This document shows positions 159-59,741 of a stretch of 64,000 bases of DNA, piece after piece (positions within the stretch are counted from its first letter, which is position 1; every line of letters begins with the position of its first letter). The stretch spans positions 1,248,001 to 1,312,000 of the forward strand of contig NZ_JAQNDL010000003.1 of NCBI RefSeq assembly GCF_028368995.1, read 5' to 3'. The notes beneath the pieces are model-generated. The model worked only from the letters and a program-made list of their open reading frames with translations. It searched no databases and had not been told where the DNA came from. The position numbers and the translations under genes are program-made. The stretch comes from Nannocystis bainbridge. GTDB lineage: Bacteria; Myxococcota_A; Polyangia; Nannocystales; Nannocystaceae.

Positions 159-1436
159 CTACCCGCGTCGCCGCCGGCGCAGCAGGGTCAGCACGGCACA
201 TAGCCCGAGGGACATGCCCCATGCGCCATGTCCCTCGGGACTCACGGCGCAGAAGCCCATGAACCCTTCGGTGTCGTCCAGCTCGGCGGGCTCGTACGGA
301 TCGACGGTCGCCAGCTGCCCGAGCGCGCGGGCGTTGCCGGCGGCGTCGTGGGCGACCAGCGCGAACACGTGACCGGAGCCGGGGTCGAGCCCGGTGACGA
401 GCACCGAGGTCTGGTCGGGCGCGATGAAGCCGCTGCACACCCGGCTCCAGTCGAGCCGCTGCATCTCCCGGCTGACGCACAGCTGACAGGTGTCGCTGCA
501 CAGCCCGGCGTCGGAGTTCTGCGTGCCCTCGTCGCACTCCTCGCCCGCGTCGACGCGGCCGTCGCCGCAGAACGCCGGCATATCGCGGTCGACCTTGACC
601 AGCGCCTGCGGCTCGCCCCCGCACACGCTGGCGACTGTGTACCAGCCCGTCCCGTCGGCCACCGCGTCGCGCGCGGGCGCGGGAAATTCAAGCTCCGCCG
701 AGTACTGCCAGTCGGTCTCGCACAGCACACGAAAGCCGGCGATGTCACGCGCATCGGGCAGCTCCCACCGCAGCAGCACGCCGTCGGCCCGCGGCTCGGC
801 CCGCAGCCCGTGCGGCAGCTGGTGCGGCGGCTCGAAGTCGTAGCGCAGCACCCCGGACTCCGCCGTCTCCGGATCGTACACAAAATCCTCCGCCTGACAG
901 CCGGTGACCCCATTCGCCGCCGGGTCGCACAGCCACACCCCGCCCTCGCCCTCGCCCTCGCAGCCGCGCGCCAGCGTGGTGTACGGCGAGTCCGCGCGGC
1001 GCTGCGCCGATTCGACGTAGCTGCCCAGGAACGCCGGATGAAACAGCGCCGTGAAGCCGGTCCGGAACTTCGCCACCGGCTCCTCGAGCAGGATACTACA
1101 CAGCCCGTTGCGCCCCTCCGCGGCCTCGCGGCTGTCGCAGCGATTGCCGACAAACCCGAAGATCGTCCGCGTCGGATCGCCCGCCCCGCCGACGGTCGAG
1201 ACTTCGGCCTGGATCGGCGCACCGCACTCGCAGCGGGCCCGATTGAGCAGGCCCTGGCGGTCGGCGTCGTCGAGGGTCCTCAGGGCCGCGCCGTCCTCGT
1301 CGAGGATCGCGTAGCGCACGCGAGCGTCGAACGACACCTCGCTGGCCCCGGCGGAGCCGGTCGCCCCGAACACACAGATGCACGCCACCAGCGACGCGCC
1401 CGAGCGGCGCGCCCCACCACGAGGTTTTCGAAGCAT
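159..1436 (-). CDS. Secreted protein with FN3-like region, one Myxococcus Cys-rich (DUF4215) repeat and MYXO-CTERM-like anchor
   Basis: ATG at 1436 after a GGAGGGG RBS; signal peptide; CGDGRVDAGEECDEG repeat; FALVAHDAAGN FN3-like strand; C-terminal Cys, hydrophobic helix and RRRRR. Confidence 0.75.
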   Translation of the reverse strand: MLRKPRGGARRSGASLVACICVFGATGSAGASEVSFDARVRYAILDEDGAALRTLDDADRQGLLNRARCECGAPIQAEVSTVGGAGDPTRTIFGFVGNRCDSREAAEGRNGLCSILLEEPVAKFRTGFTALFHPAFLGSYVESAQRRADSPYTTLARGCEGEGEGGVWLCDPAANGVTGCQAEDFVYDPETAESGVLRYDFEPPHQLPHGLRAEPRADGVLLRWELPDARDIAGFRVLCETDWQYSAELEFPAPARDAVADGTGWYTVASVCGGEPQALVKVDRDMPAFCGDGRVDAGEECDEGTQNSDAGLCSDTCQLCVSREMQRLDWSRVCSGFIAPDQTSVLVTGLDPGSGHVFALVAHDAAGNARALGQLATVDPYEPAELDDTEGFMGFCAVSPEGHGAWGMSLGLCAVLTLLRRRRRG

Positions 1437-1574
1437 GGCCCCTCCAACCACCCCGCTCCTGCGAATATTTCCCGCGCCGTCGCACCGACGTGCCGACGTC
1501 GCCAAGTCGCGCGCTTTCGTACCGATCGGCGCTCCGCCAATGATCGGTGTAACGATCGCCTCGAGGCACGTCTT

Positions 1575-2546
1575 CTATCTGCGAACCGGCCGCGCCGACG
1601 CCTGCATCGCGTACGCGATCCCGTGCTCGAGGCTCGGCAGCGTGCGCACGCCGCCGAACTCGACCCCGAGCTCGACGAGCGCGCTCGCTACCTCCGGCCC
1701 GATGCCCGTGAGCACCAGCTCCGCGCCGAGCAGCCGCACCGCGCGGCCGACGTCCGCCAGGGCCCGCGCCGCGACCTCGTCGACCTGCGGCACCCCGGTG
1801 ACGTCGAGCAACACGAACCCGGCCCGCCGCGCCTGCACGCCCTCGAGGATCGCCTCCAACAATCGACCGGCCCGGTCGCCGTCGAAATCACCGACCAGCG
1901 GGACCGCCACCACGCGCTCCGCGATCGGCACCAGCGGGGTCGAGAGCGCCAGCAGCGTCGCCCGCTGGGCCTCGATCACCTGCTGCTGCAGCGCCACGTG
2001 TTCGGCCGTCGCCACCTCGAGCTCGGCCGTCCGCTGGCGCACCCGCTCCTCGAGCTCGACGTTGAGGCGCAGCACCGCCTCGCGGTCGCGCCGCTGCTCG
2101 CTGATGCAGCGGACCACCTTGATGAGCCCGTCCTCGCCGACCCGGATCACCCGCGCCTCGTACCACTCGGTCGCGCCGTCCAGCTCGAGCGCGTACTCGA
2201 GGCGGGCCTTGCCCGCCGGCCCCGCCGCCTCCGCGAACGTCGCCTCGAACTGTGCCCCGATCTCCGCCGGCAGCACGTCCTGCATGCGCCTGCCGAGGAA
2301 CGCCTCCGGCCCCACGTACATCGGCGTCGACGGGCTTGCCAGATAATGGGTGATCGTGCCGTCGAGGCGCATCTGGAAGAACAGGTCGGGCACCCCGCGG
2401 TAGATGTTCTCGAGCGCCGTCGCCAGCTTCAGCCGCTCCGCGTGCGCGCGCTGCACCTCTTGCGCCGCGCGCTCGAGCCGGGCGACCCGGCCGCGGAGCT
2501 CCTCGTTCTCGGCCCGCAGGTCGGCGTCGGTCGGTGCCTCTTCCAT
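1575..2546 (-). CDS. PAS + STAS RsbR-like anti-anti-sigma/stressosome-type sensor
   Basis: Coiled coil, PAS (PDLFFQMRLDGTI...WYEARV), then STAS LSTPLVPI...PLVGDFD...LLDVTGV...LTGIGPEVA. Confidence 0.85.
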   Translation of the reverse strand: MEEAPTDADLRAENEELRGRVARLERAAQEVQRAHAERLKLATALENIYRGVPDLFFQMRLDGTITHYLASPSTPMYVGPEAFLGRRMQDVLPAEIGAQFEATFAEAAGPAGKARLEYALELDGATEWYEARVIRVGEDGLIKVVRCISEQRRDREAVLRLNVELEERVRQRTAELEVATAEHVALQQQVIEAQRATLLALSTPLVPIAERVVAVPLVGDFDGDRAGRLLEAILEGVQARRAGFVLLDVTGVPQVDEVAARALADVGRAVRLLGAELVLTGIGPEVASALVELGVEFGGVRTLPSLEHGIAYAMQASARPVRR

Positions 2547-2989
2547 GGTTGCACCGCGACGATAACCGACCCCCCGGTCCGCCGTTGCGACCCCCCGTTG
2601 CGCGAAGTCACCCCCCGCGCGGGCCCTCCCGAGCCTGCACCCGCAGGCACGCCCGCGCCCGCCCGGGAATGCGAGCAATCCGGGCCAAGGGGACCTCCAG
2701 GCCGGCTTCACGGGCGTCCCCACCGCCGCCGCGCACCCGTCTCCGCGGGATCACGGCGCGACTGGCCGCTGCGACTCCTATCATCACACTCCTGGGACTG
2801 ACTCGATTGGCGAGCGCGCCAGCGCGCCGGCAATGTCAGCACCACCGCGCGCGGAATTCATCGTCCACCATGCAGCGCGCGCAGATGCCCTCGGCATCTC
2901 GCCCACGGGCCTGCCGGCCCTCGGCAAAACTCCCGACCCGCCGCCGCGCGCGTCCCGACCTGCGCACATGCGCGTGATAGCGTCGTCCG

Positions 2990-8579: not shown

Positions 8580-9051
8580 GCCCGCCCGCGTCCGCCTATC
8601 ATCCTGACCATGATCCCGCGGACCTGCGCAGCCGGGCTCCGCGAAGCGGTCGCTCCCGAGGTCGAAGCTGCGCGACGCCTTTCGCAGGTGCATCGCCCTC
8701 GCACGCGCGAAGCTCTCGCCCGCCGCGCGACCCTCGCCCGTGCGCGGCCCTCGCTGGTCGCGAGGCCCGACTCGACGCCGAAGATCTCGACTCGCGCGCG
8801 TCATCGACCCCGCGACGTCCACCGCGAGCCGTGCACGCCCGAGCTCGCTCTCATCTGCCTGTCCCCGAGGACATGTTATCTGTTCTTCAGGACATCTCAC
8901 GCGCGCGGACCCCGTCCTGCGCGCTCGGCACAGGGGGCCGCGAGCGCCTCGGCCGCGGCCTCCAGGACCCGTTTCGTCGACTCTCACGAATGGCGACGTC
9001 CTTGACGTCGGCGCCGCGGACGGGCACACGAACGGGCCGGAGATTCTTGGC

Positions 9052-20469: not shown

Positions 20470-20564
20470 GCCCGCCGAGGCCGCAGCGCCTCGCCCGAAG
20501 CATCGATCCGCGCGTCGCCCCGAGCCCTCGAGGACCCGACGCGACGCGCAGATCTTATCCAATC

Positions 20565-20612
20565 ATATGTCCAACCGGACATGCTCCTGAGAGCATGTCC
20601 GTGTGGACATCT
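20565..20612. repeat. Four phased hexamers at 14-bp period
   Basis: ATATGT 20565, ACATGC 20579, GCATGT 20593, ACATCT 20607. Confidence 0.8.
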
Positions 20613-20650
20613 CATGACATCGGCCGCAGGACCTCCGGGCGCGCCGGCGC

Positions 20651-23600
20651 TCACTCTCCCGCCGGCTCGACCCGCCGGACCTGCAGCTCGGCCTCTGCCG
20701 GCCGCCCTTCCCACGCCGCGAAGCTCCCGGCGAACGCGGCCCCCGCCGCCTCGATCGCCGCCGCCTCCCCGCCCTCGAGCCCGATCGCCCAGCGCAGCGC
20801 GCCCGCGCCCAGCGGCCGCGGGTACGGCCGCACCCGCGCCCCCGCGTCCTCGAGCGCCAGCAGCAACCACATCACATGTCCTTCGAGCCAGCCGATGCAT
20901 TCGCCGGCCGCCTCGCCCACCCCGATCAGCGTCAGCTCGACGCGCGCCGGATGCTGGGCCGGATCCACCGCGCTGATCAGCGACGGATCGCCCGCGCCGG
21001 CCAGCGCGTGCCCGCGGCGCAGCTCCGCGTGCAGCAGCGCCAGCGTCGAGCGGATCACGTGGCGCGCCGAGTTGAAGGACGGCGGCGTCGGGGTCCAGAT
21101 CGGCCACAGCGGCTTGCGCCCGCCGCTCCGCGGCTCCGGCGGCGCTCCGAACGCGATGGCCGCCCCTGGCGTGCGCGCCGACAGCAGCATGAAGAAATAC
21201 CGCAGCAGCGCCGCCGGCTCCGCCGCCACCTCGGCCTCCCCGGCCGCGCGCAGCGCCCACGCCGTCAGCAGCGCCCACGTATAGCCGCCGAGCAGCCCCC
21301 ACGCCCCGACGTCGAGCTGACGCGCGCGCGCCCACGCCCGCACCCGCGCCAGCGTCTCGCGGAACACCTCGGCCTCGTAGTGCTCGCCCACGAGGGCCAC
21401 CAGCGCGTCGGCATCGATGCAGGCCAGCGCCGCGCGGCGGCTGGCCTCGTCGAGCGTCGCCAGCTCGTCCGCGGCCAGCGACCCCAGCGCTCGCGCCTGC
21501 AGCGGCGGCGGCAAGTCGGCGACCTGCAGATCGACCGCGACCCCCTCGAACCTGCACTTCAGGACAGGCAGCCCCCCGCTCTTGACCGTGCGCACGCCCT
21601 GCAGCTCGCCGGCCGCGGCCAGCCGCTCCGTCAGCGCCGCGAACAGCGGCTCGCGCTCGGCCCCGTCCGAGCCGGCCCACACCAGATCGAGGTCACCGTC
21701 CGGCCGCGCCGCTCCCAGCCGCGCCGAGCCGACCAAATGCAGCTGCGAGCCCGCGTGCACCGCCGCCGTCGCTCGCGCGAACACCCCCGCGACCCGCTCG
21801 TGCGCCGGCGACGGCCAGCGAGCGAACGACGGCAACAGAACCGCCTGTCCCTCAGGACAGCTCGGCACCGTCGCCTTGATCTCGAACGGCCCCTCCTCCC
21901 CGCGGCCGATCAGGTGCACCGCCTCGACCGTGAATTCCAGCGGCCGCCAGCTCGCCTGCCAGCGCGCCATCGCGGCCGCGATCTCCGCCTCGCTGCCCGT
22001 CAGTCTGGCGATCGTCAAATGCGGCGTGAACCCCGGCCCGCGCGACGACTGCTCGTCGCACAGCGGGAACAGCCCCGCCGCGGCCGCCTGCAGCGCCATC
22101 AACGCCCCGGGCGGATCGCTGACCGGCTCGAGCCACACCGTCGTGCTGCCGCGGTGGTCAAACCGGCGCAGCTCCTTCAACACGATCCGCAGCGGCAACA
22201 GCTCGCGCAGCGCCGTCGTCAACGCCTGCGCCGCCGCGGCGAACAGCGCCTCCGGCACGAACCCGTAGATCAAGTTGATGTGCGGCATCCAGCGCCCGTG
22301 GCTCGGGTCGTGGTCCACGCGGATCGCCTCGATCGCCGGCCACGCCGACGCCGGCGGGATCACCACCAGCGCGCTGCGGTGCACCGGCGTCGCCGCGGCC
22401 AGTCGGGCCCGGCGCGCCGCCGCGTCGGCGCCTTCGACCACCTGCAGCAGCGCGCACAGGCCGAAGTGATCCGACACGAACCGCTCCTGTCCCTCGGGAC
22501 CTGTCCCGAACGACCTGTCCCCGAAGATCGTGGCGTCGACCGCCGCCAGCGCCCCGGCCGGCGAGCGCACCAGCGCCCGGTCGAACCGCGCCGCCCGCCC
22601 GGTGCGGCTCGCCAGCGCCGCCAGCGGGTTGGCGACCGGGTCGAACGTGAAGCCCGGGTGATGCGGATGGACCTCGCGCCACACGTCGACGAGGCCCGCG
22701 CGCGCCAGCTGCCGGTCCTCCTCGCCGTCGCCGAAGTTGAGATCGCCGAGCACCAGCGCGTCGTCGACATCGGCCCGGCCGAGCCGCTCGACCAGCACCC
22801 CCAGTTGCTCGGCGCGGCGGTCGTCCGCGTCGGCCTTGCGGTTGCTCGTCAGGTGCACCGCCGCGACCGCCAGCCGTCGCCCCGCCACCTGCAAGCGCCC
22901 GACCACCAGCCGCTTGCGCTCCGAGAACGCGTGCAGCTCGAGCGCCAGCGGCCAGCGCGACAGCAGCACCTGCCCGTACGGCTGCAGCCCCTCCGCGTCT
23001 GGCCCTTCGGACACGTAGTAACCATCGCGCAGCCACGGCGCCGCCAGCAGCGCGGCCCACAGCCCCGGCGTCACCTCCTGCAGCGCGACGATGTCGGCGT
23101 CGCGCTCGCGCAGCAGCTCGAGGCACGCCGGCGTGCGCGCCTCGGTGTACAGCTGCTCGGGCTCGTAGAGGTCGAACAGCACGTTGTAGGTCGCCACCTG
23201 CAGCGCCTCGACCCGGGCCTCGTGCAGCCCGGTCGCCGGCACCGGCAGCCACGCCCCGCTGCGGCGATCGAAGCGGAAGCACGGCCGCGCCACGAACGCC
23301 GCCGGCCCGCCGCGCGCCTTGCCGCGCCGCGTCGGCGGAGCCGCGATCGTCGGCGTCGGCGCGCACGCGCGGGCGATCGCCGGGTGGTCGGCGGCCGGGC
23401 TATCACCTGACCCGAAGACCAGGTCGATGCGCGCCCGGCGATCCCACACCACCAGCTCGCCGGCCTTGATGAAGAAGATCCGGTGCCACGGGATCTCGTT
23501 GTCGCCGGCCAGGAACTCGGCCAGCGGCGCCTCGCGCACCCCCGCGAACCGCTCCTCGTACCCGACCACGAACTGGCGCACGTCGAACGCCGCGTCGAAG

Positions 23601-30413: not shown

Positions 30414-30489
30414 ACATGGCCTCCAGAGCATGTTCTTCATAACATGCTCTTATCGACATGCCCTTACGGGCATGTCCGAACGTGCATGT
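30414..30489. repeat. Six CATG-core hexamers at exact 14-bp period
   Basis: ACATGG 30414, GCATGT 30428, ACATGC 30442, ACATGC 30456, GCATGT 30470, GCATGT 30484. Confidence 0.9.
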
Positions 30490-30506
30490 CCTGCGGCGGC
30501 GCGCGA

Positions 30507-41262: not shown

Positions 41263-41265
41263 CGC

Positions 41266-45025: not shown

Positions 45026-45051
45026 GCTCGCCGCGCCCGCGGTCGTCGCCC

Positions 45052-45112
45052 ACATGTCCCCGAGGACATGTCATCGCCCCGGATCGGAGATGACATGTCT
45101 CTCGGGACATCC
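45052..45112. repeat. Inverted pair of 20-bp motif copies between convergent genes (possible terminator hairpin)
   Basis: ACATGTCCCCGAGGACATGTCATC ... GATGACATGTCTCTCGGGACAT. Confidence 0.8.
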
Positions 45113-45114
45113 CG

Positions 45115-46173: not shown

Positions 46174-46355
46174 GCCGCGGCTGGGCCAATCGCAACACAT
46201 GTCCTATCGGCCATGTCTTACGAATCGCCGAGCGCCGTGGACCCCGGCGCGTCGTGCCACCGCCGGCGGCGACCGTCCTCGTCCATAGTCGCGCGATTTT
46301 TGTCACGCCTCCTCGCGGTCGGTTCCTCACCGAACGGTGCTCTAACCGCACCTGC

Positions 46356-48393: not shown

Positions 48394-48577
48394 TCGAAGG
48401 CGGAGCATCGCTGCGATCGCCGGCGCCGATCGCCGGCACATGTCTCGAGAGACATGTTGTGTCAATTCATCGCTGTCCGCTCGCCGATGCGCATGCCCGC
48501 GCGTGGCATCGCGCCTGCGCGCCCGCGAGCGCTCGCCGTACTTGTGCGCCGGCGGGTCGCTCCCGTATAGCCTGATC

Positions 48578-49456: not shown

Positions 49457-49808
49457 CAGCAATCGTCGGGCTGCTTCCTCCAGAGCGGAGCGGGGTCCTC
49501 CTTCGCCTCGTCCTGCCGATGAGGAGTTCCCTGACATTGCTATGAGCGGCGCGCGCCGCGGGCTGCCCTCCTCGCGCAGACCTGCGGTCGGACGTCCGTC
49601 CCGCGAAGCAGTTTGTCCGCGCAGCGGCGCACGACCGACCGCATCGCTCCTTCGCGCCTCGCCGCGCCCCCGAAGATTCTCGTCCATACGGCCTCGTGCG
49701 GGCTCCATTCGTCGATTCTCCGTCGCTCGGAATACATGTCCCTCGGGCTATGTTCCATCCCATCAGGACCACCGAGGTGCGCCTCGCTCTGCCTCCTCCG
49801 GAGGCCTC

Positions 49809-50171
49809 AGCGGCGGCGGCCTGGTCAACCTCGCCCGCTACCTCGGCGCCAAGTACCCCGATCAGCGCCTCGGCCTGGTCTCCTCCACCCTCGACGTCAC
49901 GATCCGCTTCTTCTTCGGCTACGGCGAGGACGAGTGCACCCCGAAGACCATCAACGTCCCCGCCGGCGAGTTCGAGGCCGGGCTCGTCGACCTGCGCGAC
50001 AACTACGTGCACGAGCCTTCCGGCGTGTGGAGCACCTACCTGGTCGGCGGCAGCGACGCCCACGTGTGGACCATGAGCTCGCGGTTCGCCAACACCCACG
50101 TCGACGGCGTCCGCTTCGTCGACTGGCTCACCGACCTGCTGGCCGGCGAAGCCCGCCACGTCGGCCCGTGA
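49809..50171 (+). pseudogene. C-terminal fragment of a pectin-acetylesterase-like (myxobacterial) hydrolase
   Basis: GGGLVNLARYLGAKYPDQRLGLVSS..D.TIRFF...H...VDGVRFVDWL has strong coding bias but no plausible start; the upstream in-frame sequence does not look coding. Confidence 0.6.
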
Positions 50172-50452
50172 CCTGCGCTCGCGGACATGCCCAATCGGAC
50201 ATGTCCACGCAGACACATCACACCTCCGCGCCGCAGGTGCGCGCGACGGCTCGATCCGCCGCCGCGATCGAGGTCATCCTTCGCGTCTTCCGCCGTCGAC
50301 TCGCTTCGAGCGGGCAATGACCGCCCGACCGTTCGCCTCGTTCCTGCTGCCCCGAGGACGTCGCACCTGAGGCCGCTCGCGGGTCCGGGTCGGCGATCGC
50401 GCAATGATTTGTCGCCCGCCGCCTCGAACCGCGCGGGGGCATCTGCTACAGC

Positions 50453-51127: not shown

Positions 51128-51209
51128 CAGCGCCGCCGAAGATCGACCAGTCTGTTCCGTCAGGTCCGAAGGGACATGCCCCGAGAGACATGTCCCAAGA
51201 CCGTCCGCC

Positions 51210-52787
51210 TCACGCCAGCCCGTAGAGCGAATCGACCAGCGCGTCGAGGGCCGGCGCGACTGACGGGTCGCCCGCGCGCCAGCGGTCGACCAGCCTGACG
51301 ATCTCCGCCGCCACCTCCCGGTCCCAGTCCTCCGGGGCCGGCACCGGCAGCCCGCGCAGCTGGCGGGGACCGATCCGCAGGTACCCGCGGGCCAGGCGGT
51401 CGCCGCCGTGCACGTGTTGATAATAGTCGTCGATCACCCGGCTGTGCACGATCGCCGCCAGCACCCGCAGGTCGTCGGGCCACCAGCAGATCGTCGTCGA
51501 CTTGCCGGCCAGCACCTCGCCGCGGGCGTCGATCGTCGCCTCGATCGAGCGCGTCATCCCGGCCACGATCAGCTTCGGCGTGCGCGCCTGGGCCAGCCGG
51601 CGCGGCGGCAGGCGCTCGGGCGCCGCGATCACCGGGCGCAGGAAGCTGCGGCCCAGGTAGCGCAGCGGCGTCTTGCCCCACAGCTCGGCGCAGCGGTCGA
51701 TCGTCCCGCTGTTGACCACGCGCAGCCCTGCTTCGCCCTCCACGATCAGCTCCGCGATCGCGTAGGCCTCGCCGACGGTCGCCGCGCCCCACACCTGCGC
51801 CAGCTCGCCGAGCGGCCGGCCGACCGCGCGCATGTGGGCCACGCAGGCCGCGTCGCCGCGGCCCGAGATCGGCCACGGCCCCTGGGACAGACCTGTCCCG
51901 AGGGACATCTCCTCACATTCGTCCGTGCCGCGCCGCAGCGCCACCGGCGTCGCCTCGCCCGGGCCGCGGCGGGCCACGAACGCCAGCGGGTAGACCCCGG
52001 CCGCGAACGGCAGCGCCTCGCTCAGGTCGTACAGCGCCACCAGCCGGGCCTCGCGCGTCAGCAGCCGGCGGGTCGCCGCCGCGTAGTCGGCCGACGCCAG
52101 CTTGTTCGGCACCACCAGCGCCACGTAGCCGCCCGGCGCGCACAGGCGCAGGCCGAGCTCGATGAACACGCAGAACAGGTCCCAGTTGCCGCGGGCCGCC
52201 TCGTAGCAGCCGGCGCAGTGGCGGCGCAGCGCCGCGTGGTGGCGCGTCATCGCCTCCGCGTCGACGAACGGCGGGTTGCCGAGCACCGCGTCGAAGCCCC
52301 CCGCCGCCAGCGCCGCCGGGAACTCCTCCGCCCACACGAACGGCTGGCCCGCCGCCGCCGGCGCCCCGGCCCCCAGCAGCGCGTTGCCGACCTTGATGTT
52401 TTCGGACATGTCCTCGGGGACAGCTCCCACCAAGCCCGCCACCGCCGCGCGCGCCAGCAGGGCCGCCGCCGGGTCGACGTCGACCCCGAAGATCGCCGCC
52501 TGCAGCAGCGCCAGCCGCTCGCCCGCGCTACGCGCTTCACCTGTCTCTCGGGCCATCTCCTCGTCGCGGGCCAGCAGCGCCGCCGCGGCCGCGATCAAGA
52601 ACGCCCCCGCGCCACACGCCGGGTCGACCACCCGCACCGTCGCCCCCGCCGGCGCCGCCGCCAACACGCGCCCGAGCGCGTCGTCGACCAGCCGGCGCAC
52701 CAGCGGCGCCGGCGTGTAGAACACCCCGTCGCGCTTGCGGCGGGCCGGATCGAGCCCGCGTTCGTGCGCCCGCGCGGCCTCGTTCAT
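51210..52787 (-). CDS. Gamma-class N6-adenine DNA methyltransferase (TaqI/Eco57I-like), orphan
   Basis: GVFYTP, VVDPACGAGAFL, IFGVDVD, GNAL, FDAVLGNPPF, TaqI-C-like target-recognition domain (PKLIV...LRGLPVP). Confidence 0.88.
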   Translation of the reverse strand: MNEAARAHERGLDPARRKRDGVFYTPAPLVRRLVDDALGRVLAAAPAGATVRVVDPACGAGAFLIAAAAALLARDEEMARETGEARSAGERLALLQAAIFGVDVDPAAALLARAAVAGLVGAVPEDMSENIKVGNALLGAGAPAAAGQPFVWAEEFPAALAAGGFDAVLGNPPFVDAEAMTRHHAALRRHCAGCYEAARGNWDLFCVFIELGLRLCAPGGYVALVVPNKLASADYAAATRRLLTREARLVALYDLSEALPFAAGVYPLAFVARRGPGEATPVALRRGTDECEEMSLGTGLSQGPWPISGRGDAACVAHMRAVGRPLGELAQVWGAATVGEAYAIAELIVEGEAGLRVVNSGTIDRCAELWGKTPLRYLGRSFLRPVIAAPERLPPRRLAQARTPKLIVAGMTRSIEATIDARGEVLAGKSTTICWWPDDLRVLAAIVHSRVIDDYYQHVHGGDRLARGYLRIGPRQLRGLPVPAPEDWDREVAAEIVRLVDRWRAGDPSVAPALDALVDSLYGLA

Positions 52788-53050
52788 GCCGGCGATCCCG
52801 GGCCCGCGGCGATCTCCAGCGCGCCCGCCGCGGCGCCCCTGGACGGCGACCACGGCCCGCTCTCCGCCCTCGCCAGGCCCGCCCGCGGCCAGCCCGGCCG
52901 GGCCACGAGCGCCTCGCCGCGGACCTTCGCGGCCCGTCCGGCCCGCGGCTCACGCGACCTGGCGTCGGCGCACACCGGCGCAGTTTACCCACGCCCGCCC
53001 GTCTGTGCTACCACTCCCGCGCGGACGGCTCGCCACCTGTCCGGAGAGAC

Positions 53051-53788
53051 ATGTCCCAACAAACAGCCTCGCCCGAACGGCTCGCGCCGGTGATCGCCCC
53101 CTCGCTGCTCAGCGCCGACTTCGCCCGCCTCGGCGAGGAGGCCGTCGCGCTCGACCGGGCCGGCGCCGACTGGCTGCACGTCGACGTCATGGACGGCCGG
53201 TTCGTCCCCAACATCACGATCGGCCCGCTGGTGGTCCAGGCCCTGCGCCCGCACACCGCGCGCGTGCTCGACTGTCACTTGATGATCGAGGAGCCCGAGC
53301 GCTACGTCGAGGCGTTCGCCGACGCCGGGGCCGACATCATCACCGTCCACCTCGAGGCCTGCCGCCACCTCCACCGCAACCTCCAGCAGATCCGCGACCT
53401 CAAGCGCAAATCTGGCGGGCGGGTGCTGGCCGGCGTCAGCCTCAACCCGCACACCCCCGCCTCGGCCCTGGTCCACGTGCTCGACCTGTGCGACCTCGTC
53501 CTCGTCATGAGCGTCAACCCCGGCTTCGGCGGCCAGCAGTTCATCCCCGCCGTGCGGCCCAAGATCCGCGAGCTGCGGGCCATGATCACCGCCGCCGGCC
53601 TGCCGACCCGGATCGAGGTCGACGGCGGCGTGACCGTCGACACCATCGCCGACATCGCGGCGGACGGCGCCGACGCCTTCGTGTCCGGCACCGGCGTCCT
53701 GCGCAGCCGGCAGTTCGGTCGGGACTACGCCGCCGCCATCGCGGCCCTTCGGGGAACCGCCGATGCCGCCATGATCTGGCGCACCTGA
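53051..53788 (+). CDS. rpe: Ribulose-phosphate 3-epimerase
   Basis: IAPSLLSADF, HVDVMDG.FVPNIT, DCHLMI, MSVNPGFGGQ, EVDGG. Confidence 0.96.
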   Translation: MSQQTASPERLAPVIAPSLLSADFARLGEEAVALDRAGADWLHVDVMDGRFVPNITIGPLVVQALRPHTARVLDCHLMIEEPERYVEAFADAGADIITVHLEACRHLHRNLQQIRDLKRKSGGRVLAGVSLNPHTPASALVHVLDLCDLVLVMSVNPGFGGQQFIPAVRPKIRELRAMITAAGLPTRIEVDGGVTVDTIADIAADGADAFVSGTGVLRSRQFGRDYAAAIAALRGTADAAMIWRT

Positions 53789-55017: not shown

Positions 55018-55325
55018 GGCTGTCTAGTGGGACATGTCGAAAAGGACATGCCCTTCGGGACACCCGGTCTGGCTGCCCCGCGGACACGTCCTTGAAGGCA
55101 CGGCCTTCGGGTCGCCGAACCGGCGTGACCTCGGGAGCATGTCCCTGAGGCCATGCCCTTCGGGTCACCCCACCCGGCCTGTCCCGTGGATATGTCCCCG
55201 AAGACATGCCCTTCAGGTCACCCCACCGCCATGGCTCGTGGACATGTCCTTGAAGCCATGCCCTCCAGGTCACCCGATCGCCAGGGCACCCGGTCACCGG
55301 GCGCGACCTGTCCCTCAAGCCAGAT
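55018..55325. repeat. Tandem array: 5 units of 52-53 bp built on the 14-bp-phased CATG motif
   Basis: Core hexamers at 55032, 55084, 55137, 55190, 55242; consensus GGACATGTCCyTGAAGmCATGCCCTTCrGGTCACCC plus ~17 variable bp. Confidence 0.85.
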
Positions 55326-55351: not shown

Positions 55352-56440
55352 TCACTCGGGCACGTCGCACACCGGCTCCGGCTCCGGCTCCCGGCAGCGA
55401 TCGCCCTCCCCGCACTGCAGGTGGCCCAGGCACTGCACCCACCCGGCGGACTCGCCGCACCCGGCGTCCACCCCCCCGCGGAGCACGCACACCTGCGAAC
55501 CGGCGTTGGGCTTGCACTCCGCGTACGGCTGGCACTCCCAATCCAGGCATGGTTCGCCGGCGGTCGGCAGCTTGACGCACTTCCTGCTCGTCTCGTCGCA
55601 GGTGTTGTCGAGGCGGGCGCACGGCGGGTAGTTGTTCGTCGAGCAGCTCTGGCCCTCGTTCGGCAGCGTCCGGCACGTGCGCCCGCCGTCGTCCGAGGAG
55701 TAGCATTGCAGGCCCTCGGCGCATTCGACCCACCCTGACGAGCAGTCCCCGCCTTCCCCGGTCCGCTCGCGGCAGATCGACTCCGAGAAATCGCAGTACA
55801 GCTCGAGCGCGCACGAGTTGCCGTTGTCCACGCACGACTCCCCCGCCTTGCGCCGCGCCGTGCACACCGTCGGCAGGAACGTATTGGGGTCGCGGGCGCA
55901 GAACGCATCGTCCGCGCAGCCCGAGCCGCTGCACGCGTCGCCGATCTGCGGCCCTGCGCCGCCCAGCACCCGGCACGCCCCCGGGCAGCACATGTCCTCC
56001 TCGCAGCCGAACGGCGAGAACCCGCACACCGCATCGCCCGCGCACTCCTCCGAGTTGAGGCACGGATCGTAGTTGCGGACCTTGCCGACGAACACGTCGG
56101 CGCACACCGCCGGCCCCGCCGTGGGGCCGACGCTGAACAGCACCCGCTCGAGCAGGTTGCGCTCGCACGCCTGCGCGCTCACCTGCTCGAGGCAGGCCTC
56201 GGCCGCCTCGGCGTCGAACTTCACCCGCTCGGCCGCCAGCGCCGCCAGCAGGTACTGGAAGCGCCCGCTCGTGTCCCACACCAGCGATTCGCGGCACTGC
56301 GCCGGCGACTGGAACACCGCGCAGCCGGACGCCCACGCGCACAGCGCCTGCTCGTACTCGCCGGCGAAGTCGTCCGGCGTCGCCGGCTCCGCGCACCCCG
56401 CCGTCACACACAGCACCAGCCCGGCGATCGTCGTCCTCAT
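55352..56440 (-). CDS. Cys-rich (Dickkopf/EB-like repeat) lipoprotein
   Basis: TAGC lipobox; FDAEAAEACL; G..C...C..GL.C repeats. Confidence 0.75.
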   Translation of the reverse strand: MRTTIAGLVLCVTAGCAEPATPDDFAGEYEQALCAWASGCAVFQSPAQCRESLVWDTSGRFQYLLAALAAERVKFDAEAAEACLEQVSAQACERNLLERVLFSVGPTAGPAVCADVFVGKVRNYDPCLNSEECAGDAVCGFSPFGCEEDMCCPGACRVLGGAGPQIGDACSGSGCADDAFCARDPNTFLPTVCTARRKAGESCVDNGNSCALELYCDFSESICRERTGEGGDCSSGWVECAEGLQCYSSDDGGRTCRTLPNEGQSCSTNNYPPCARLDNTCDETSRKCVKLPTAGEPCLDWECQPYAECKPNAGSQVCVLRGGVDAGCGESAGWVQCLGHLQCGEGDRCREPEPEPVCDVPE

Positions 56441-56467
56441 GATGTCCTCCACGACATGTCCTTATGT

Positions 56468-57700
56468 TTATGTCCCTTGAGGCAGCTGATCCGCCGCCGG
56501 CACCGGACACACGCTGTCGATCGCCGGCGCGACGCAGCGGGCGTCGTCCCAGCCGTCGCAGCGCAGCGCCCCGGCGCAGCGCTGGATGTCGAAGCCGCAC
56601 GGCTCGCCCTCGCCGCCGCGGGCCACGCAGACCTGGGTGGTCCAGTCGCAGCTGCTGGACAGCCCGCACACGCTCATCGGGCACGGCTCGCCGGGCCCCG
56701 GCGCCGCCACGCACTGCTCGCTGTCCGGATCGCAGGTCGCCCCGAGCGTCCCGCAGCCGAGGTACCAGTCGGCCTTGCAGGCCGCGCCCAGCGGCGCGAA
56801 CGCGCGGCAGCGGCCCGCGCCGACGTACTCCGGGTCGGCGCAGAACAGCCCCTCCTGGCAGCCGAATTCGCCGAACGGGGCGCACGCCTCACCCTCGCCG
56901 CCGAGCGGCCGACACAGGCCGCTCTGGAAGTCGCAGAAGCTGTCGGCGTCGCACGCGTCGACGCTCTGGCAGGCGCCGCCGGCCGGCCGCTGCGCCGTGC
57001 ACTGCGTGGACGCCCCGGTGTTCGGGTCGCGGTCGCAGAAGCTGCCGGGCTCGCAGCGGCTGTTGCCGTTGCAAGGCGTGCCCACGGTCAGCGACGCCAG
57101 CCGGCGGCAGCCGCCGACGCAGCAGCTGTCGGTGCACGACGGATCGAAGCCGCACACCATCTCCGCCCCCTCCTGCAGCGCGCACTCGGCCGTCAGCAGG
57201 CACGGCCCGTTCTCGACCATCGTCCCGCGCAGGATCGCGTCGCAGGCGGCCCGCCCGGCCGCTTCGGCCTCGTCGACCACGTACGAGCCCAGGAGCTCGC
57301 AGCCGCGGGCCTCGACGTAGGCCAGGCAGCTCGCCGCCGCCTCGGCGTCGAACACCAGCCGCCCCGCCGCCTCCGAGGCCCGCAGGTACGCCGTCGCCTG
57401 CCCGCCCCCGCCCTCGCCCTCGTCGAGCCGCGCCTGGGCCAGCAGCCGCGGCGGATAGACCGTGTCGAAGAACTCGACCGCGCGGCAGTCCGCCTCCGCC
57501 GCGAACGCCCCGCAGCGGACCGCCCAGCCGCAGTAGCTCGCCTCGGCCAGCTCGAAGAAGTCGGCGAACGCGATCGCCTCGGCCGCGCCGGTGTCCGTGC
57601 CCGTGCCCGTGTCGGTGTCCGTCGTCGCGGCCTGGTCGCTGCCGCACCCGAGCACCCCGACCAGGATCACGGCAGAGCACCGACGCAAAGTTAAGCGCAT
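56468..57700 (-). CDS. Cys-rich lipoprotein, paralogue of the adjacent gene
   Basis: VLGC lipobox; FDAEAAASCL; CC.G.CR and FC.RDPNT shared with 55352..56440. Confidence 0.75.
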   Translation of the reverse strand: MRLTLRRCSAVILVGVLGCGSDQAATTDTDTGTGTDTGAAEAIAFADFFELAEASYCGWAVRCGAFAAEADCRAVEFFDTVYPPRLLAQARLDEGEGGGGQATAYLRASEAAGRLVFDAEAAASCLAYVEARGCELLGSYVVDEAEAAGRAACDAILRGTMVENGPCLLTAECALQEGAEMVCGFDPSCTDSCCVGGCRRLASLTVGTPCNGNSRCEPGSFCDRDPNTGASTQCTAQRPAGGACQSVDACDADSFCDFQSGLCRPLGGEGEACAPFGEFGCQEGLFCADPEYVGAGRCRAFAPLGAACKADWYLGCGTLGATCDPDSEQCVAAPGPGEPCPMSVCGLSSSCDWTTQVCVARGGEGEPCGFDIQRCAGALRCDGWDDARCVAPAIDSVCPVPAADQLPQGT

Positions 57701-57731: not shown

Positions 57732-58943
57732 TCAATTCGCCGGCACCGGCGCGGGCGCGGGCGCCCTCGCGGCCGCGGAACGCCGGTCTGCCAGCGCCTT
57801 GCGGGCCCCGACGGCCTCGCCGATCAGCACCGTCGCCGCGCAGCTGGCCGCCAGGCTCGAGCGGGCCCGCTCGACCGCCTTGCGCACGCAGCCCGCCAGC
57901 CTGGGATCGGCCCCCTCGACCCGGACCTGCCCGGCCCGCCCGCCGCGGTAGCTCCAGACCACCGCCACCGCCGCCCCGGCCGGCGCGCAGGCGTCGAGCG
58001 CCGCCTTGTGGGCCGCCACGCCCTCGAGCGCCTCCGCCAGCGCCAGCGGGTCGGTCTGCGGCATCCGGCACGCCAGCTCGTGCACCGTCAGGCCCGCCAT
58101 CGTCAGCGTCGGCGCCCGGCTCGTCAGCGCCACCTCGACCTTGCGCCCGCGCGACCGCTTCAGCTGGGCCGCCAGCTCGCAGCCGTCGCCGTCGCCGCCC
58201 TCGCACGCGCGCGCGAACAGGGCCGTCGCCTGGCCGACGTCGACCGCCGTGCCGACCCCGCGCAGCGCCGCCAGGCCCTGGCGCAGGCACCCCGCCGGCT
58301 GGCCGCCCGCGCACCCGCGCGCGAACAGCTCGACCGCGCGCGCGTTGTCGCCGGGCCGCCCGCCCGCCTCGTCGAAGATCAGGATGCCCGCGTTGAAGCA
58401 GCCGGTCGCGTGCCCGAGCCCGCACGCCTGCTCGAACGCCGCCGCCGCGCGGCCCGGGTCGCGCGTCGCCCCGCGACCTGTCTCGAAGAACAGCCCCGCC
58501 GTGAAGCACGCGAACGCGTCCTGCTTGGCGCACGCCAGCTCGAACATCGCCAGCGCGCGCGGCGGATCGGCCGGCACGGCGGTGCCTTCGGCCAGCATCG
58601 TCCCGACCGTCGCGCACGCCTCGGCGAAGCCGAGCCGGCACGCGCGGTCGTACAAGCCGACGGCCCGCGGCGGATCTTTCACCGCTCCGCCGACCCCGCC
58701 GCGCAGCACCCCGGCGAGGTTGGAGCAGCCGACGGCATGTCCGAGAGAACATGACCGATCGAGCAGGCGCAGCGCCTCGTCGGGGCGCTGCAGGCCGAGC
58801 GCCAGCATGCCCTCGGTGTTGCACTCGGCCGCCTCGCACTGCCGCGGCGGCTCGGCCGGCGCCGCGGTCTCCTGCGCGGCCGGGCAAGCAGCGACGAGCC
58901 ACAGGCCCGCGACCAGGGGCGAGAGACACCCGTGCGTGCGCAT
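57732..58943 (-). CDS. Sel1-like repeat lipoprotein, paralogue of 10852..12060
   Basis: VAAC lipobox; ~6 Sel1 repeats; C-terminal domain homologous to that of the 10.9-kb gene. Confidence 0.8.
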   Translation of the reverse strand: MRTHGCLSPLVAGLWLVAACPAAQETAAPAEPPRQCEAAECNTEGMLALGLQRPDEALRLLDRSCSLGHAVGCSNLAGVLRGGVGGAVKDPPRAVGLYDRACRLGFAEACATVGTMLAEGTAVPADPPRALAMFELACAKQDAFACFTAGLFFETGRGATRDPGRAAAAFEQACGLGHATGCFNAGILIFDEAGGRPGDNARAVELFARGCAGGQPAGCLRQGLAALRGVGTAVDVGQATALFARACEGGDGDGCELAAQLKRSRGRKVEVALTSRAPTLTMAGLTVHELACRMPQTDPLALAEALEGVAAHKAALDACAPAGAAVAVVWSYRGGRAGQVRVEGADPRLAGCVRKAVERARSSLAASCAATVLIGEAVGARKALADRRSAAARAPAPAPVPAN

Positions 58944-59175
58944 ATTTGCGCGAGGGTTGCCCACAGCCCCGGCAGCGTCAAGCCTCGGCGGGCGCGGGTG
59001 CGAGGAACACCGCCCGCGCCCGTATGCGGCCTTCGGCGCCGTCCTTGCGACAGCGCCCGCCTCACGCCCTCGCGCCCGGGATCGCCCGCCTCCGCCGCGA
59101 GCGATCTGCAGCCGTCCGCTCGTGCGGGCCGCCACGCCCGCCGCGTCGCGATCACCGGCGCTCCGCCGCGCCCCA

Positions 59176-59294
59176 AACCCTGGACAGGGACTCCATCCAT
59201 TGCGAGCTCCCCGGTTCCCCGCGCTCGTGGCTCCGCGCTCCGTCGGCGCCTGGCTCGCCGAGCGCCTCGCGGACAACCCTGGACAGGGACTCCA
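59176..59294 (+). repeat. Exact 20-bp direct repeat AACCCTGGACAGGGACTCCA, 99 bp apart
   Basis: Copies at 59176-59195 and 59275-59294. Confidence 0.75.
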
Positions 59295-59741
59295 CACTTC
59301 ATCGCCGCGAATCCCCGAGGCGCTCCGCCGCGCTTCGCCTTCCGCTGCGTCACCGCGCTTGCGGGCCTATCACCGCCGTCTCACGGTCGAGCCCGGTGGC
59401 TCGCGCGCTCGCATCGATGCCCGCACCATCGCCGTCGATCCGCGATTCGCTCGCCGCCTGCACACCGCATGTCTCTTCAGACATGTCCCTTTCGTCATGT
59501 CTGGACTGTCACACATCCCGGGCCCGGGTGTGTGCGAGCGCCACGTCGGCGTCGGGGTTCGTTCGCCCGGGCGCGCCGGCGCCTCGGGCCCCCTAACCTG
59601 CGGAATCCGCCCGAATTTCGCCTGGCATCGCGGCAGGCGCGCCTTTCATCGTCGACATGATCGAGCGGGACGCCGCCTGGCAAAGCTGCGTATCCTCCAG
59701 GGGACGCGCGGACCTTCGGGTCGCGCGCCAGGAGCCTCGAC

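What the first reader, a model, noticed from the sequence alone, without database searches (positions are those of the whole stretch)
198..59500. Pervasive 14-bp-phased palindromic DNA motif (AC[A/C]TGTC-N6-GACA[T/G]GT) at ~30 loci: candidate undescribed chromosome-wide DNA signal
Seen in sequence: ACATGT-like hexamers (ACATGT, ACCTGT, ACAGGT, GCATGT and near variants) recur with start-to-start spacing of exactly 14 bp. Positions: 198/212/226, 8857/8871, 8878/8892, 16391/16405, 16657/16671, 20565-20607 (x4), 20874/20888, 21843/21857, 22485/22499/22513, 27458/27472, 30414-30484 (x6), 38683/38697, 39365/39379, 41218/41232, 41243/41257, 41903/41917, 42095/42109, 42219/42233, 45052/45066, 45093/45107, 46197/46211, 48438/48452, 49734/49748, 50171-50213 (x4), 50679/50693, 51160/51174/51188, 51891/51905, 52406/52420, 52539/52553, 53035/53049/53063, 54983/54997, 55018-55320, 56440-56482 (x4), 58476/58490, 58735/58749, 59467/59481/59495. 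The spacer varies in sequence but not in length. By eye I count about 20 exact ACATGT, most with a partner at +/-14; a rough expectation at ~72% GC (my estimate) is about 3. Inference: roughly one locus per 2 kb, independent of gene function and including convergent 3' ends, is too many for an ordinary regulon. Fixed spacing with a free spacer argues against a mobile element. This fits a site for a protein that polymerises along DNA with a 14-bp step (3 steps = 42 bp = 4 helical turns), for example a nucleoid organiser, or a HIP1/DUS/matS/SlmA-site-like system. I know of no described motif with this geometry; the MrpC/CRP-type site is TGT-N10-ACA, whereas this is TGT-N8-ACA.
Basis: partly seen in the sequence, partly recalled or inferred. 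Interest (0 to 1): 0.9.

Follow-up and report, generated by a model that had tools for sequence, protein, structure and literature searches.

The report
Phased palindrome hairpin arrays after genes
A Nannocystis genome carries about 1,850 arrays of the 10-bp palindrome GGACATGTCC repeated every 14 bp, placed just after stop codons, which most likely act as REP-like RNA hairpins at the ends of messages rather than as a track for a DNA-coating protein.

Summary
Genome-wide, ACATGT pairs occur 557 times at spacing 14, against 2 each at spacings 13 and 15.

The true unit is the 10-bp self-palindrome GGACATGTCC (956 exact copies, 9.5 expected) plus a 4-bp AT-rich spacer. I count 1,853 arrays of two or more strong units (0.75% of an 11-Mb genome).

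- **Placement.** Arrays sit 10-30 nt after stop codons. They occur in 43% of convergent intergenic regions, 12-15% of tandem ones and 5.6% of divergent ones.
- **Pairing.** Adjacent units covary so as to keep base pairs (odds ratios 2.1-3.5; non-pairing controls about 1).
- **Strand.** Stem mismatches are G·U rather than A·C on the sense strand of the nearest gene, after control for replication skew and also within single convergent arrays.

Together these point to transcript hairpins: a REP-like 3'-end element acting as a barrier to RNA decay, a terminator, or both. It lacks a RAYT transposase, the GTAG/CGTC tag and a U-tract.

The paired motif was found only in the genus (9 of 10 other congeners searched) plus three hits in one sister genus. 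It was absent from 400 other genomes of the phylum.

Still unexplained are the invariant core sequence, the strict 14-bp phase and the fast-changing spacers; an unknown sequence-specific factor is possible. No RNA data were available.

The parts
196..247 (.). Array with two strong units (210-233) and degenerate flanking units. It lies inside the last ~30 codons of ORF 159-1373(-).
   Evidence: The RNA fold is -26.9 kcal/mol, z -4.3. It is conserved in G007.
8855..8901 (.). Weak double hairpin (TGTCC-N4-GGACA twice, 21 bp apart). One unit scores at least 9 bits.
   Evidence: The fold z is only -1.2.
20563..20616 (.). Four-unit array in the convergent gap between 18304-20469(+) and 20651-25405(-). 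It can fold as one nested hairpin.
   Evidence: The fold is -31.7 kcal/mol, z -5.2.
22483..22522 (.). Three phased ACCTGT-type units inside the 1,584-aa ORF, at about residue 964-974. This lies between the Exo_endo_phos domain and the 2H phosphoesterase domain.
   Evidence: It is conserved in G007. The linker position is my arithmetic from the coordinates.
30412..30491 (.). Six-unit array, the longest in the window.
   Evidence: The fold is -35.7 kcal/mol, z -5.6, with two local hairpins.
45050..45114 (.). Two hairpins forming one long palindrome, 25 nt after the stop of the AurF-like gene 43856-45025(+).
   Evidence: The fold is -35.7 kcal/mol, z -4.1. Relatives have degenerate versions.
46195..46218 (.). 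Two-unit hairpin 22 nt after the stop of the DUF4180 gene 45796-46173(+).
   Evidence: It was not seen in the four relatives aligned.
48436..48459 (.). Two-unit hairpin in a stretch that four congeners lack.
49732..49757 (.). One strong unit with a degenerate partner.
50169..50222 (.). Array 11 nt after a TGA stop, with two strong units at 50183-50206. It is present at the same place in all five species aligned.
   Evidence: The fold z is -3.7.
51158..51195 (.). Three-unit array in the convergent gap between the GST gene 50453-51127(+) and the methylase gene 51210-52787(-).
   Evidence: It is present in 3 of the 4 relatives.
51889..51914 (.). In-frame array-like site inside the Eco57I-family methylase gene, encoding EMSLGTG. 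It shows no length change against outgroup homologues.
52404..52429 (.). In-frame array-like site inside the methylase gene, encoding VPEDMSEN. It shows no length change against outgroups.
52537..52562 (.). Weak in-frame site inside the methylase gene, encoding EMARETGE. This is where Nannocystis proteins are about 7 residues longer than a 74%-identical homologue.
53033..53058 (.). One strong and one weak unit upstream of ribulose-phosphate 3-epimerase, in a divergent gap. This is one of the rare arrays on the 5' side of a gene.
55025..55320 (.). Five tandem copies of a 52-53-bp block, each holding three phased units. They fill the convergent gap 54968-55351. Relatives have a gap of only about 80 bp here.
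56438..56491 (.). One strong unit with degenerate phased neighbours.
   Evidence: The fold z is -1.0.
58733..58756 (.). Two-unit array inside the ORF 57732-58943(-), which carries Sel1 repeats.
59465..59502 (.). Three-unit array, present in 3 of the 4 relatives.
   Evidence: The fold z is -2.8.

Best explanation
These are a genus-specific family of REP-like repeats that work at the RNA level.

**Proposed mechanism.**
- Each unit is the self-complementary 10-mer GGACATGTCC, and units follow one another every 14 nt.
- The arrays are transcribed as the start of the 3' untranslated region. In the transcript, neighbouring units pair into stems of up to 10 bp with 4-nt loops.
- The stop-proximal hairpin of each gene is the working part.
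- It most likely blocks 3'-to-5' decay and/or helps end transcription, as shown for E. coli REPs. One array can do this for both genes of a convergent pair.

**Shown here.** Abundance, phase, placement, pairing covariation and sense-strand wobble bias.

**Inferred.** That the arrays are transcribed, and that they stabilise or terminate.

**Unexplained.** Why the stem sequence and the 4-nt spacer length are fixed. I take this as a sign of an unidentified sequence- and geometry-specific factor or copying process.
For: **Placement.**
- 692 arrays lie in convergent gaps, 661 in tandem gaps and 91 in divergent gaps. Arrays occur in 43% of convergent, 12-15% of tandem and 5.6% of divergent gaps.
- In tandem gaps the median distance is 30 nt from the stop and 192 nt to the next start. 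In convergent gaps it is 26 and 33.5 nt.
- The stop codon is often embedded in a phased unit, and long arrays fill whole convergent gaps.

**Structure.**
- The first 70 nt after the stop fold 10.5 kcal/mol better than shuffles when an array is present. The excess is 2.5 without an array and 0.3 in 5' controls.
- Of 10 window arrays folded, 7 have z between -2.8 and -5.6.

**Covariation.** In 711 isolated two-unit arrays the stem pairs have odds ratios of 2.1-3.5 (p from 0.011 to 8.5e-7). Non-pairing position controls give 0.86 and 1.09.

**Wobble bias on the sense strand.**
- With the sense strand G-rich, G·U to A·C is 522:169. With the sense strand C-rich it is 278:334. Convergent arrays give 1116:643.
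- The resulting odds ratios are 1.78 (p 7e-9) and 1.44 (p 1e-4).
- Using only well-scored gene calls they are 1.79 and 1.49.
- Spacers and the surrounding 3' sequence show no comparable sense skew.

**Within single convergent arrays.**
- The pair next to the + gene has G·U/A·C 1.03 on the + strand, and the pair next to the - gene has 0.66 (p 9e-4).
- Arrays nearer the + gene give 1.19, against 0.65 for those nearer the - gene (p 1.3e-6).

**Which pairs are best kept.**
- Watson-Crick pairing is higher in convergent arrays (0.785) than in tandem arrays (0.754).
- Terminal pairs pair better than internal pairs: 7.81 against 6.72 (p 5e-20) in five-unit convergent arrays.

**Selection across species (G000 against G007).** Core positions are 0.90-1.00 identical, against 0.84 at third codon positions and 0.77 in other intergenic DNA.

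**Function by analogy.** E. coli REP325 is both a partly Rho-dependent terminator and an mRNA stabiliser (abstract of bioRxiv 10.64898/2026.03.23.713779).
Against: - No RNA data: no RNA run was available, so transcription, 3' ends and half-lives are untested.
- A purely structural hairpin needs neither a fixed stem sequence nor a loop of exactly 4 nt. Spacing 14 occurs 2,639 times against 24 and 20 at 13 and 15.
- The loop shows no tetraloop or strand preference.
- There is no preference for even numbers of units. Extended arrays of 2, 3, 4, 5 and 6 units number 746, 284, 321, 286 and 156.
- 37% of the 956 exact units have no phased neighbour of at least 4 bits.
- Covariation is modest and many stems keep mismatches. 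Watson-Crick pairing is about 75-79%.
- 281 arrays lie in frame inside real coding sequence, where a terminator would do harm.
- Only 3 of 102 tRNA genes are followed by an array.
- All placement and orientation tests rest on my own crude gene finder based on third-position GC.
- The contrast between terminal and internal pairs may be affected by how arrays were chained across weak internal units.
Confidence: 0.6

Rival explanations
1. The arrays would be double-stranded DNA sites for a dimeric protein that binds each 10-bp palindrome. Neighbouring dimers would touch at a 14-bp step, giving a nucleoid-associated protein, a transcription roadblock or a topological barrier at gene ends.
For: - Each unit is a perfect dyad with an invariant CATG core.
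- The period is strictly 14 bp, with AT-rich, strand-symmetric spacers that change freely in sequence but not in length.
- There is no preference for even numbers of units, and 37% of exact units have no recognisable partner.
- Arrays are tolerated in coding linkers.
- Tandem short palindromes at a fixed period are how MetJ-type repressors bind (recalled).
Against: - A symmetric duplex site predicts no compensatory covariation between positions up to about 20 bp apart in neighbouring units, yet it is there.
- It also predicts no dependence of variant type on the sense strand of the nearest gene, yet that is there too.
- No candidate protein was found.
- The known myxobacterial site-specific nucleoid protein CdbA binds a GC-rich direct repeat, not this motif (passages of PMC7156744).
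Confidence: 0.15
2. The arrays would be selfish or mutational by-products with no cellular function. They would be short palindromic repeats that spread by slippage, tandem duplication or an unknown enzyme, and that persist only where they do least harm: after stop codons and in protein linkers.
For: - This genome holds 142 perfect pairs, against 6-69 in its congeners.
- In 21 kb it has 11 clusters of phased units (about 9 arrays once adjacent clusters are merged), against 2-4 in four relatives. Nearly all of theirs are shared with it.
- There is a genome-specific five-fold amplification of a 52-53-bp block.
- Spacers within an array are identical more often than chance, 4.5% against 1.2%.
- Arrays occur in frame in variable linkers, as recalled for Rickettsia palindromic elements.
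Against: - No Y1/RAYT transposase was found.
- Most spacers are unrelated to one another, so simple copying does not make most units.
- Two of the three sites in the methylase gene arose without any length change.
- Core positions are more conserved between species than synonymous sites.
- Sense-strand wobble bias and better-kept stop-proximal pairs imply selection on the transcript.
Confidence: 0.15
3. The motif would be a DNA-level recognition word, such as an uptake or recombination signal like DUS/USS. It would accumulate by molecular drive and form hairpins after genes only as a side effect.
For: - The word is about 10 bp long, and units of at least 9 bits number 12,300, roughly one per kb.
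- It is genus-specific.
- It can arise in place by substitution inside genes.
- Neisseria DUS often sit as inverted pairs after genes (recalled).
Against: - An uptake word has no need for a 14-bp phase.
- Arrays are about 78% intergenic, whereas uptake sequences are common in coding DNA (recalled).
- Covariation and sense-strand bias are not predicted.
- Competence was not examined.
Confidence: 0.05

Closest known systems
REP/BIME elements of enterobacteria and pseudomonads (REPINs)
   Same: - Hundreds to thousands of short extragenic palindromes.
- Placed after genes and between convergent genes, and clustered at regular spacing.
- Able to form RNA hairpins. E. coli REP325 both stabilises the upstream mRNA and partly terminates transcription (abstract).
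- Locations differ between close relatives.
   Different: - No GTAG or CGTC end tag. The tag is described in passages of PMC3733652, and the consensus here lacks it.
- No RAYT gene.
- The repeated thing is a 10-bp self-palindrome, not a 20-40-bp copy with a conserved loop.
- Loops are hypervariable but fixed at 4 nt, and units keep an exact 14-bp phase.
Untagged REP-like stem-loop families (M. tuberculosis, Deinococcus, Bordetella, Brucella, cyanobacteria)
   Same: They are lineage-specific conserved hairpins without a terminal tag or a known transposase. PMC3733652 notes that such families exist and that many more are likely (passage).
   Different: I did not compare sequences or architecture with those families. 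None is reported from Myxococcota in the texts I searched.
DUS/USS uptake sequences as inverted pairs after genes (recalled, not tested)
   Same: A word of about 10 bp at roughly one per kb that is lineage-specific. Pairs form hairpins downstream of genes.
   Different: Uptake words are not self-palindromic, are not phased and are frequent in coding DNA.
MetJ met-box arrays (tandem 8-bp palindromes; recalled)
   Same: Two to five or more tandem copies of a short palindrome at a fixed period.
   Different: Met boxes lie in the promoters of a small regulon. The arrays here avoid promoter regions and number 1,853.
Rickettsia palindromic elements (recalled)
   Same: Palindromic repeats that also occur in frame inside protein-coding genes.
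   Different: RPEs are about 100-150 bp and are inserted. Here two of three sites examined arose with no length change.

Membership tests
REP/BIME (RAYT-associated) | Short imperfect palindrome able to form a stem-loop | tested here: met
   Folds, excess stability of 10.5 kcal/mol and covariation.
REP/BIME (RAYT-associated) | High copy number, extragenic, biased to gene 3' ends and convergent gaps | tested here: met
   There are 1,853 arrays. They occur in 43% of convergent and 5.6% of divergent gaps.
REP/BIME (RAYT-associated) | Conserved GTAG or CGTC tetranucleotide at one end | tested here: not met
   The consensus rrGGACATGTCCyy has neither. The feature itself is taken from PMC3733652.
REP/BIME (RAYT-associated) | A Y1 (RAYT) transposase gene in the genome | tested here: not met
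   PF01797 gives 0 matches in the window's own genome, which is 90.5% complete. The positive controls were detected in 6 of 14 genomes.
Intrinsic (Rho-independent) terminator | G+C-rich hairpin just downstream of a gene | tested here: met
Intrinsic (Rho-independent) terminator | U-tract immediately after the hairpin | tested here: not met
   T is 27-34% only in the spacer-like first 3 nt after the array, and mostly 10-19% beyond that. Canonical sites in 40001-60000 number 8, against 4.8±2.9 in shuffles.
Intrinsic (Rho-independent) terminator | Transcripts end at the site | not testable with these tools
   No RNA run was listed.
Cooperative DNA-binding array (MetJ-like, or a nucleoid protein site) | Tandem palindromic units at a fixed period | tested here: met
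   Spacing 14 occurs 2,639 times, against 24 at 13 and 20 at 15.
Cooperative DNA-binding array (MetJ-like, or a nucleoid protein site) | Strand-symmetric site: no dependence on transcription sense and no pairing covariation | tested here: not met
Cooperative DNA-binding array (MetJ-like, or a nucleoid protein site) | A cognate binding protein | not testable with these tools
   No candidate was found. The CdbA motif is different.
DUS/USS-type uptake sequence | Over-represented lineage-specific word of about 10 bp | tested here: met
   956 copies against 9.5 expected. It is restricted to the genus.
DUS/USS-type uptake sequence | Uptake bias and competence machinery | not tested
   Not examined.

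The most novel reading that the evidence does not exclude
Nannocystis would have a sequence-defined, factor-dependent system for forming 3' ends. An unknown dimeric protein would recognise the two-fold-symmetric GGACAUGUCC duplex made by neighbouring units, or the same dyad in DNA. It would do so only in a 14-nt register, and would use the arrays as bidirectional stop or protection signals for about a quarter of all genes. That would be a lineage-specific 'terminator code' with no counterpart in model bacteria.
Probability: 0.18. Interest if true: 0.85.

Novelty: new variant of a known kind. Interest (0 to 1): 0.5.

Why it matters
What REP-like repeats do, and how they are kept alike, is still debated. 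This family separates features that are usually confounded. The stem sequence is fixed, the loop sequence is free and the loop length is fixed. The unit is its own reverse complement, and no RAYT is present.

That makes it a clean system for asking whether such elements work through structure alone or through a specific factor. It also gives a practical annotation signal for gene ends in Nannocystis, a genus mined for natural products. In addition, it flags that arrays can become protein linkers.

Tried and rejected
- **RNA evidence.** No RNA holder was listed for window 49500-59499.
- **Rfam.** No family reached its gathering score in the window.
- **Earlier findings of this scan.** Nothing was found by place, sequence or words.
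- **RAYT.** None found.
- **U-tract after arrays.** None found. My own terminator scan was confounded by T-rich spacers and I do not use it.
- **Stable tetraloops or strand preference in spacers.** None found.
- **Spacer-to-spacer complementarity within arrays.** At the null level, 1.10-1.14 against 1.09. Only the flanks of two-unit arrays show some, at 1.40.
- **Preference for even unit numbers.** Not seen.
- **Decline of G·U bias from proximal to distal pairs in tandem gaps.** Not seen, 1.84 against 1.68, p 0.6.
- **Register (1,2)+(3,4) in four-unit tandem arrays.** Borderline only, p 0.051.
- **Analogous phased motif in two other genera of the family.** No spike in 166 kb of G011 or 200 kb of G024. 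A plain k-mer census was too insensitive.
- **Viral contigs.** Eight contigs have one pair each, at GC 0.37-0.66. I take these as chance or uninformative.
- **CdbA site.** It is a GC-rich direct repeat and does not match.
- **Wider synteny with G007.** Only 34 arrays fell in the comparable span, and 15 of them had no close anchor. Of 8 arrays in gaps between anchors, 2 had phased units in G007. The turnover estimates are therefore rough.
- **Literature.** Five searches found no description. Supplements were not consulted.

Full report
**1.

The window is 71.7% G+C and holds 21 exact ACATGT. Base composition predicts about 3.

The window lies in an 11.05-Mb genome of five contigs. Genome-wide, ACATGT is the most over-represented palindromic hexamer: 4,234 copies against 581 expected.

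Its copies are spaced as follows:

| Spacing (bp) | 13 | 14 | 15 | 28 | 42 | 56 |
|---|---|---|---|---|---|---|
| Pairs | 2 | 557 | 2 | 172 | 141 | 69 |

Aligning the contexts shows that the repeated thing is the 10-bp self-palindrome GGACATGTCC. It occurs 956 times exactly, against 9.5 expected.
- C4 and G7 are invariant. The middle pair is A5/T6, where only A-to-C and T-to-G are common.
- The most common other variants are A3-to-G and T8-to-C.
- The unit is followed by a 4-bp spacer.

A symmetric matrix finds 12,300 units of at least 9 bits, against 1,819 for the reversed motif. Consecutive units are 14 bp apart 2,639 times, 13 bp apart 24 times and 15 bp apart 20 times.

Chaining units gives 1,853 arrays of two or more strong units. 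Extended in phase, these hold 6,446 units and cover 82.8 kb, or 0.75% of the genome.

In the window itself, 20 unit pairs lie at spacing 14, against 0-1 at neighbouring spacings and 0 for the control.

**2. Where the arrays are.**

I had no annotation, so I called genes from third-position G+C. This method is crude, above all for start codons. Pfam checks of 30 window ORFs supported the strand calls I rely on and showed two long opposite-strand ORFs, which my gene calls had already excluded, to be spurious.

| Context | Arrays |
|---|---|
| Convergent gaps | 692 |
| Tandem gaps | 661 |
| Divergent gaps | 91 |
| Inside ORFs | 409 |

- Arrays occur in 43% of convergent gaps, 12-15% of tandem gaps and 5.6% of divergent gaps.
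- In tandem gaps they lie a median 30 nt after the upstream stop and 192 nt before the next start. In convergent gaps they lie 26 and 33.5 nt from the two stops.
- At single-base resolution the distance to the stop has spikes at 6, 11-12 and -3 to 2 nt. These arise because a TGA stop is often part of a degenerate phased unit.
- The longest arrays fill the whole space between two convergent genes.
- Among 3' regions with at least 70 nt of room, 1,053 of 5,016 carry an array in the first 70 nt.
- Only 3 of 102 tRNA genes are followed by an array. One tRNA-Met has a textbook hairpin-plus-T-tract terminator, so canonical terminators do exist here. They are not enriched in window 40001-60000, where 8 were found against 4.8±2.9 in shuffles.
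- No T-tract follows the arrays.

**3. Evidence that pairing in a transcript matters.**

*Stability.* The 70 nt after a stop fold 10.5 kcal/mol better than their shuffles when an array is present. The excess is 2.5 kcal/mol in array-free 3' regions and 0.3 in 5' controls. Window arrays fold with z scores down to -5.6, and four-unit arrays can nest.

*Covariation.* In 711 isolated two-unit arrays, the variable stem positions of neighbouring units covary to keep Watson-Crick pairs.
- Odds ratios are 2.9, 3.1, 2.1 and 3.5, with p from 0.011 to 8.5e-7.
- The same positions compared in a non-pairing way give 1.09 and 0.86.

*Direction of mismatches.* The genome has a strong replication skew of about ±0.08, and this alone biases the counts, so I stratified by it.

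| Class | G·U : A·C |
|---|---|
| Tandem arrays, sense strand G-rich | 522:169 |
| Tandem arrays, sense strand C-rich | 278:334 |
| Convergent arrays, read on the G-rich strand | 1116:643 |

- These counts give a sense-strand effect of about 1.6-fold. The odds ratios are 1.78 (p 7e-9) and 1.44 (p 1e-4).
- With only high-scoring gene calls they are 1.79 and 1.49.
- Spacers show no sense effect (G/C 1.04), and nor does the surrounding 3' sequence (G/C 0.95, T/A 1.09).

*An internal control free of replication skew.* Within convergent arrays of three or more units, the pair next to the + gene has a + strand G·U/A·C ratio of 1.03. The pair next to the - gene has 0.66 (p 9e-4). Arrays lying nearer the + gene give 1.19, against 0.65 for those nearer the - gene (p 1.3e-6).

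*Which pairs are best kept.*
- Convergent arrays must fold on both strands, and they have more Watson-Crick pairs (0.785 against 0.754).
- Their terminal, stop-proximal pairs are better matched than internal ones: 7.81 against 6.72 in five-unit arrays (p 5e-20) and 7.44 against 6.74 in six-unit arrays.
- That last contrast may be coloured by the way I chained arrays across weak internal units.

A symmetric duplex-DNA site predicts none of these asymmetries. A hairpin in the sense transcript predicts all of them. A hairpin in the displaced non-template DNA strand would fit too, but is less economical.

**4. What a plain hairpin does not explain.**
- The stem sequence is fixed, and the loop is exactly 4 nt.
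- Spacers are 52% A+T in a 28% A+T genome. They are strand-symmetric (YYRR-like) and show no tetraloop preference.
- Unit numbers show no preference for even values.
- 37% of exact units have no phased neighbour of at least 4 bits.
- Between this genome and G007, which are 87% identical over the 19 kb aligned, unit cores are 0.90-1.00 identical and outer unit positions 0.83-0.87. Spacers are 0.61-0.67, third codon positions 0.84 and other intergenic DNA 0.77. There is a single gap in 12 arrays.
- In one six-unit array the cores are kept, while three of the five spacers share no position with their G007 counterparts and a fourth shares one of four. There is no indel.

So the core is under constraint, the spacer length is under constraint, and the spacer sequence evolves at or above the neutral rate. 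The sample is small. This is why I keep an unidentified sequence- and geometry-specific factor in play.

**5. Dynamics and range.**
- The 20-mer made of two perfect inner halves occurs 142 times in this genome. It occurs 6-69 times in 9 of 10 other genomes of the genus. The tenth, G004, is 64% complete and has none.
- It occurs three times in one other genus of the family, and in none of the 29 further relatives searched.
- It occurs in none of 400 other genomes of the phylum, spanning 254 other genera.
- Record titles and protein names place the genus as Nannocystis.
- Two other genera of the family show no analogous phased motif in 166 and 200 kb sampled.
- In a five-species alignment of window 43001-64000, this genome has 11 clusters of phased units (about 9 arrays once adjacent clusters are merged). 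The others have 2-4, of which 11 of 12 are shared with it.
- The gap 54968-55351 holds five tandem copies of a 52-53-bp block of three units, where relatives have about 80 bp.
- Spacers within an array are identical slightly more often than chance, 4.5% against 1.2%.

Arrays therefore grow by duplication at times, but most units are not simple copies.

**6. Arrays inside genes.**

Of 348 arrays lying well inside called ORFs, 281 have coding-type third-position G+C in the same frame on both sides. The unit has no stop codon in any frame.

*Eco57I-family methylase gene, 51210-52787(-).* It contains three in-frame sites. Aligned with homologues from outside the genus, two of them (VPEDMSEN and EMSLGTG) show no length change. 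The third coincides with about 7 extra residues.

*The 1,584-aa ORF, 20651-25405(-).* By my arithmetic from the domain coordinates, its sites fall between domains.

Arrays can thus arise in place in variable linkers. This argues against a simple insertion model.

**7. Comparison with what is known.**

| Candidate | Outcome |
|---|---|
| REP/BIME family | The closest kind. Same copy number, placement, clustering and strain-to-strain variability. E. coli REP325 is both stabiliser and partly Rho-dependent terminator (abstract). |
| RAYT-linked REP superfamilies | Membership fails on two tested features: no GTAG/CGTC tag (feature from passages of PMC3733652) and no Y1 transposase. |
| Untagged REP-like families | Known from other phyla. 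|
| Intrinsic terminators | Membership fails on the U-tract. |
| CdbA site | It is a GC-rich direct repeat. |

Comparisons with DUS pairs, MetJ boxes and Rickettsia palindromic elements are recalled, not tested.

I found no description of this motif in five literature searches, nor in the two REP surveys I searched for myxobacterial names. Supplements were not available.

**8. Verdict.**

The feature is real, abundant and genus-specific. It is best read as a new variant of REP-like 3'-end RNA hairpins (confidence 0.6).

The fixed core, the exact phase and the fast-changing spacers remain unexplained. They keep open a bolder reading: a dedicated factor-dependent system for forming 3' ends (0.18).

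Noticed in passing
window 20651-25405 (-): A 1,584-aa ORF combines several RNA-end domains. They are an MJ1316 RNA cyclic-end recognition domain, an Exo_endo_phos domain, a 2H (2'-5' RNA ligase superfamily) domain and poly(A)-polymerase-like nucleotidyltransferase and central domains. It looks like a large fused RNA repair or processing enzyme. The phased motifs inside it fall between domains.
   Followed up: partly
window 59814-64000 (+), runs off the window: A giant protein with at least 11-12 HAMP repeats and a GAF domain. Its DNA is internally repetitive with a 276-bp ladder in self and cross-species BLAST.
   Followed up: partly
window 54968-55351: A five-fold tandem amplification of a 52-53-bp block of three units, specific to this genome. 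Four congeners have a gap of about 80 bp here.
   Followed up: yes
window about 47500-49700: This stretch is unaligned in all four congeners compared, including the array at 48436. It is possibly an insertion specific to this genome. The ORFs there have no Pfam match.
   Followed up: no
genome contigs C1-C5: There is a strong GC skew of about ±0.08, with a sign change near 1.5 Mb of C3. It is large enough to bias any strand-asymmetry statistic, so orientation tests must be stratified by it.
   Followed up: partly
G000:C1:20972-21116: A tRNA-Met gene is followed by a canonical hairpin-plus-T-tract terminator and then by a two-unit array. This shows that both kinds of element coexist.
   Followed up: no
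window 51210-52787 (-): An Eco57I-family N6-adenine DNA methylase with DPACGAG and NPPF motifs. It is conserved across Nannocystis. More distant homologues carry a TaqI-like specificity domain. I looked for no partner nuclease.
   Followed up: no
L001 (G011:C4:213966-213985) and two further sites in G011: The only hits outside the genus are three perfect pairs, with A+T-rich or A+T-only spacers (AAAT, ATGT, AATT). They lie in a genome sampled at 62% G+C that shows no phased excess in 166 kb. They may be ordinary operators or relics.
   Followed up: no
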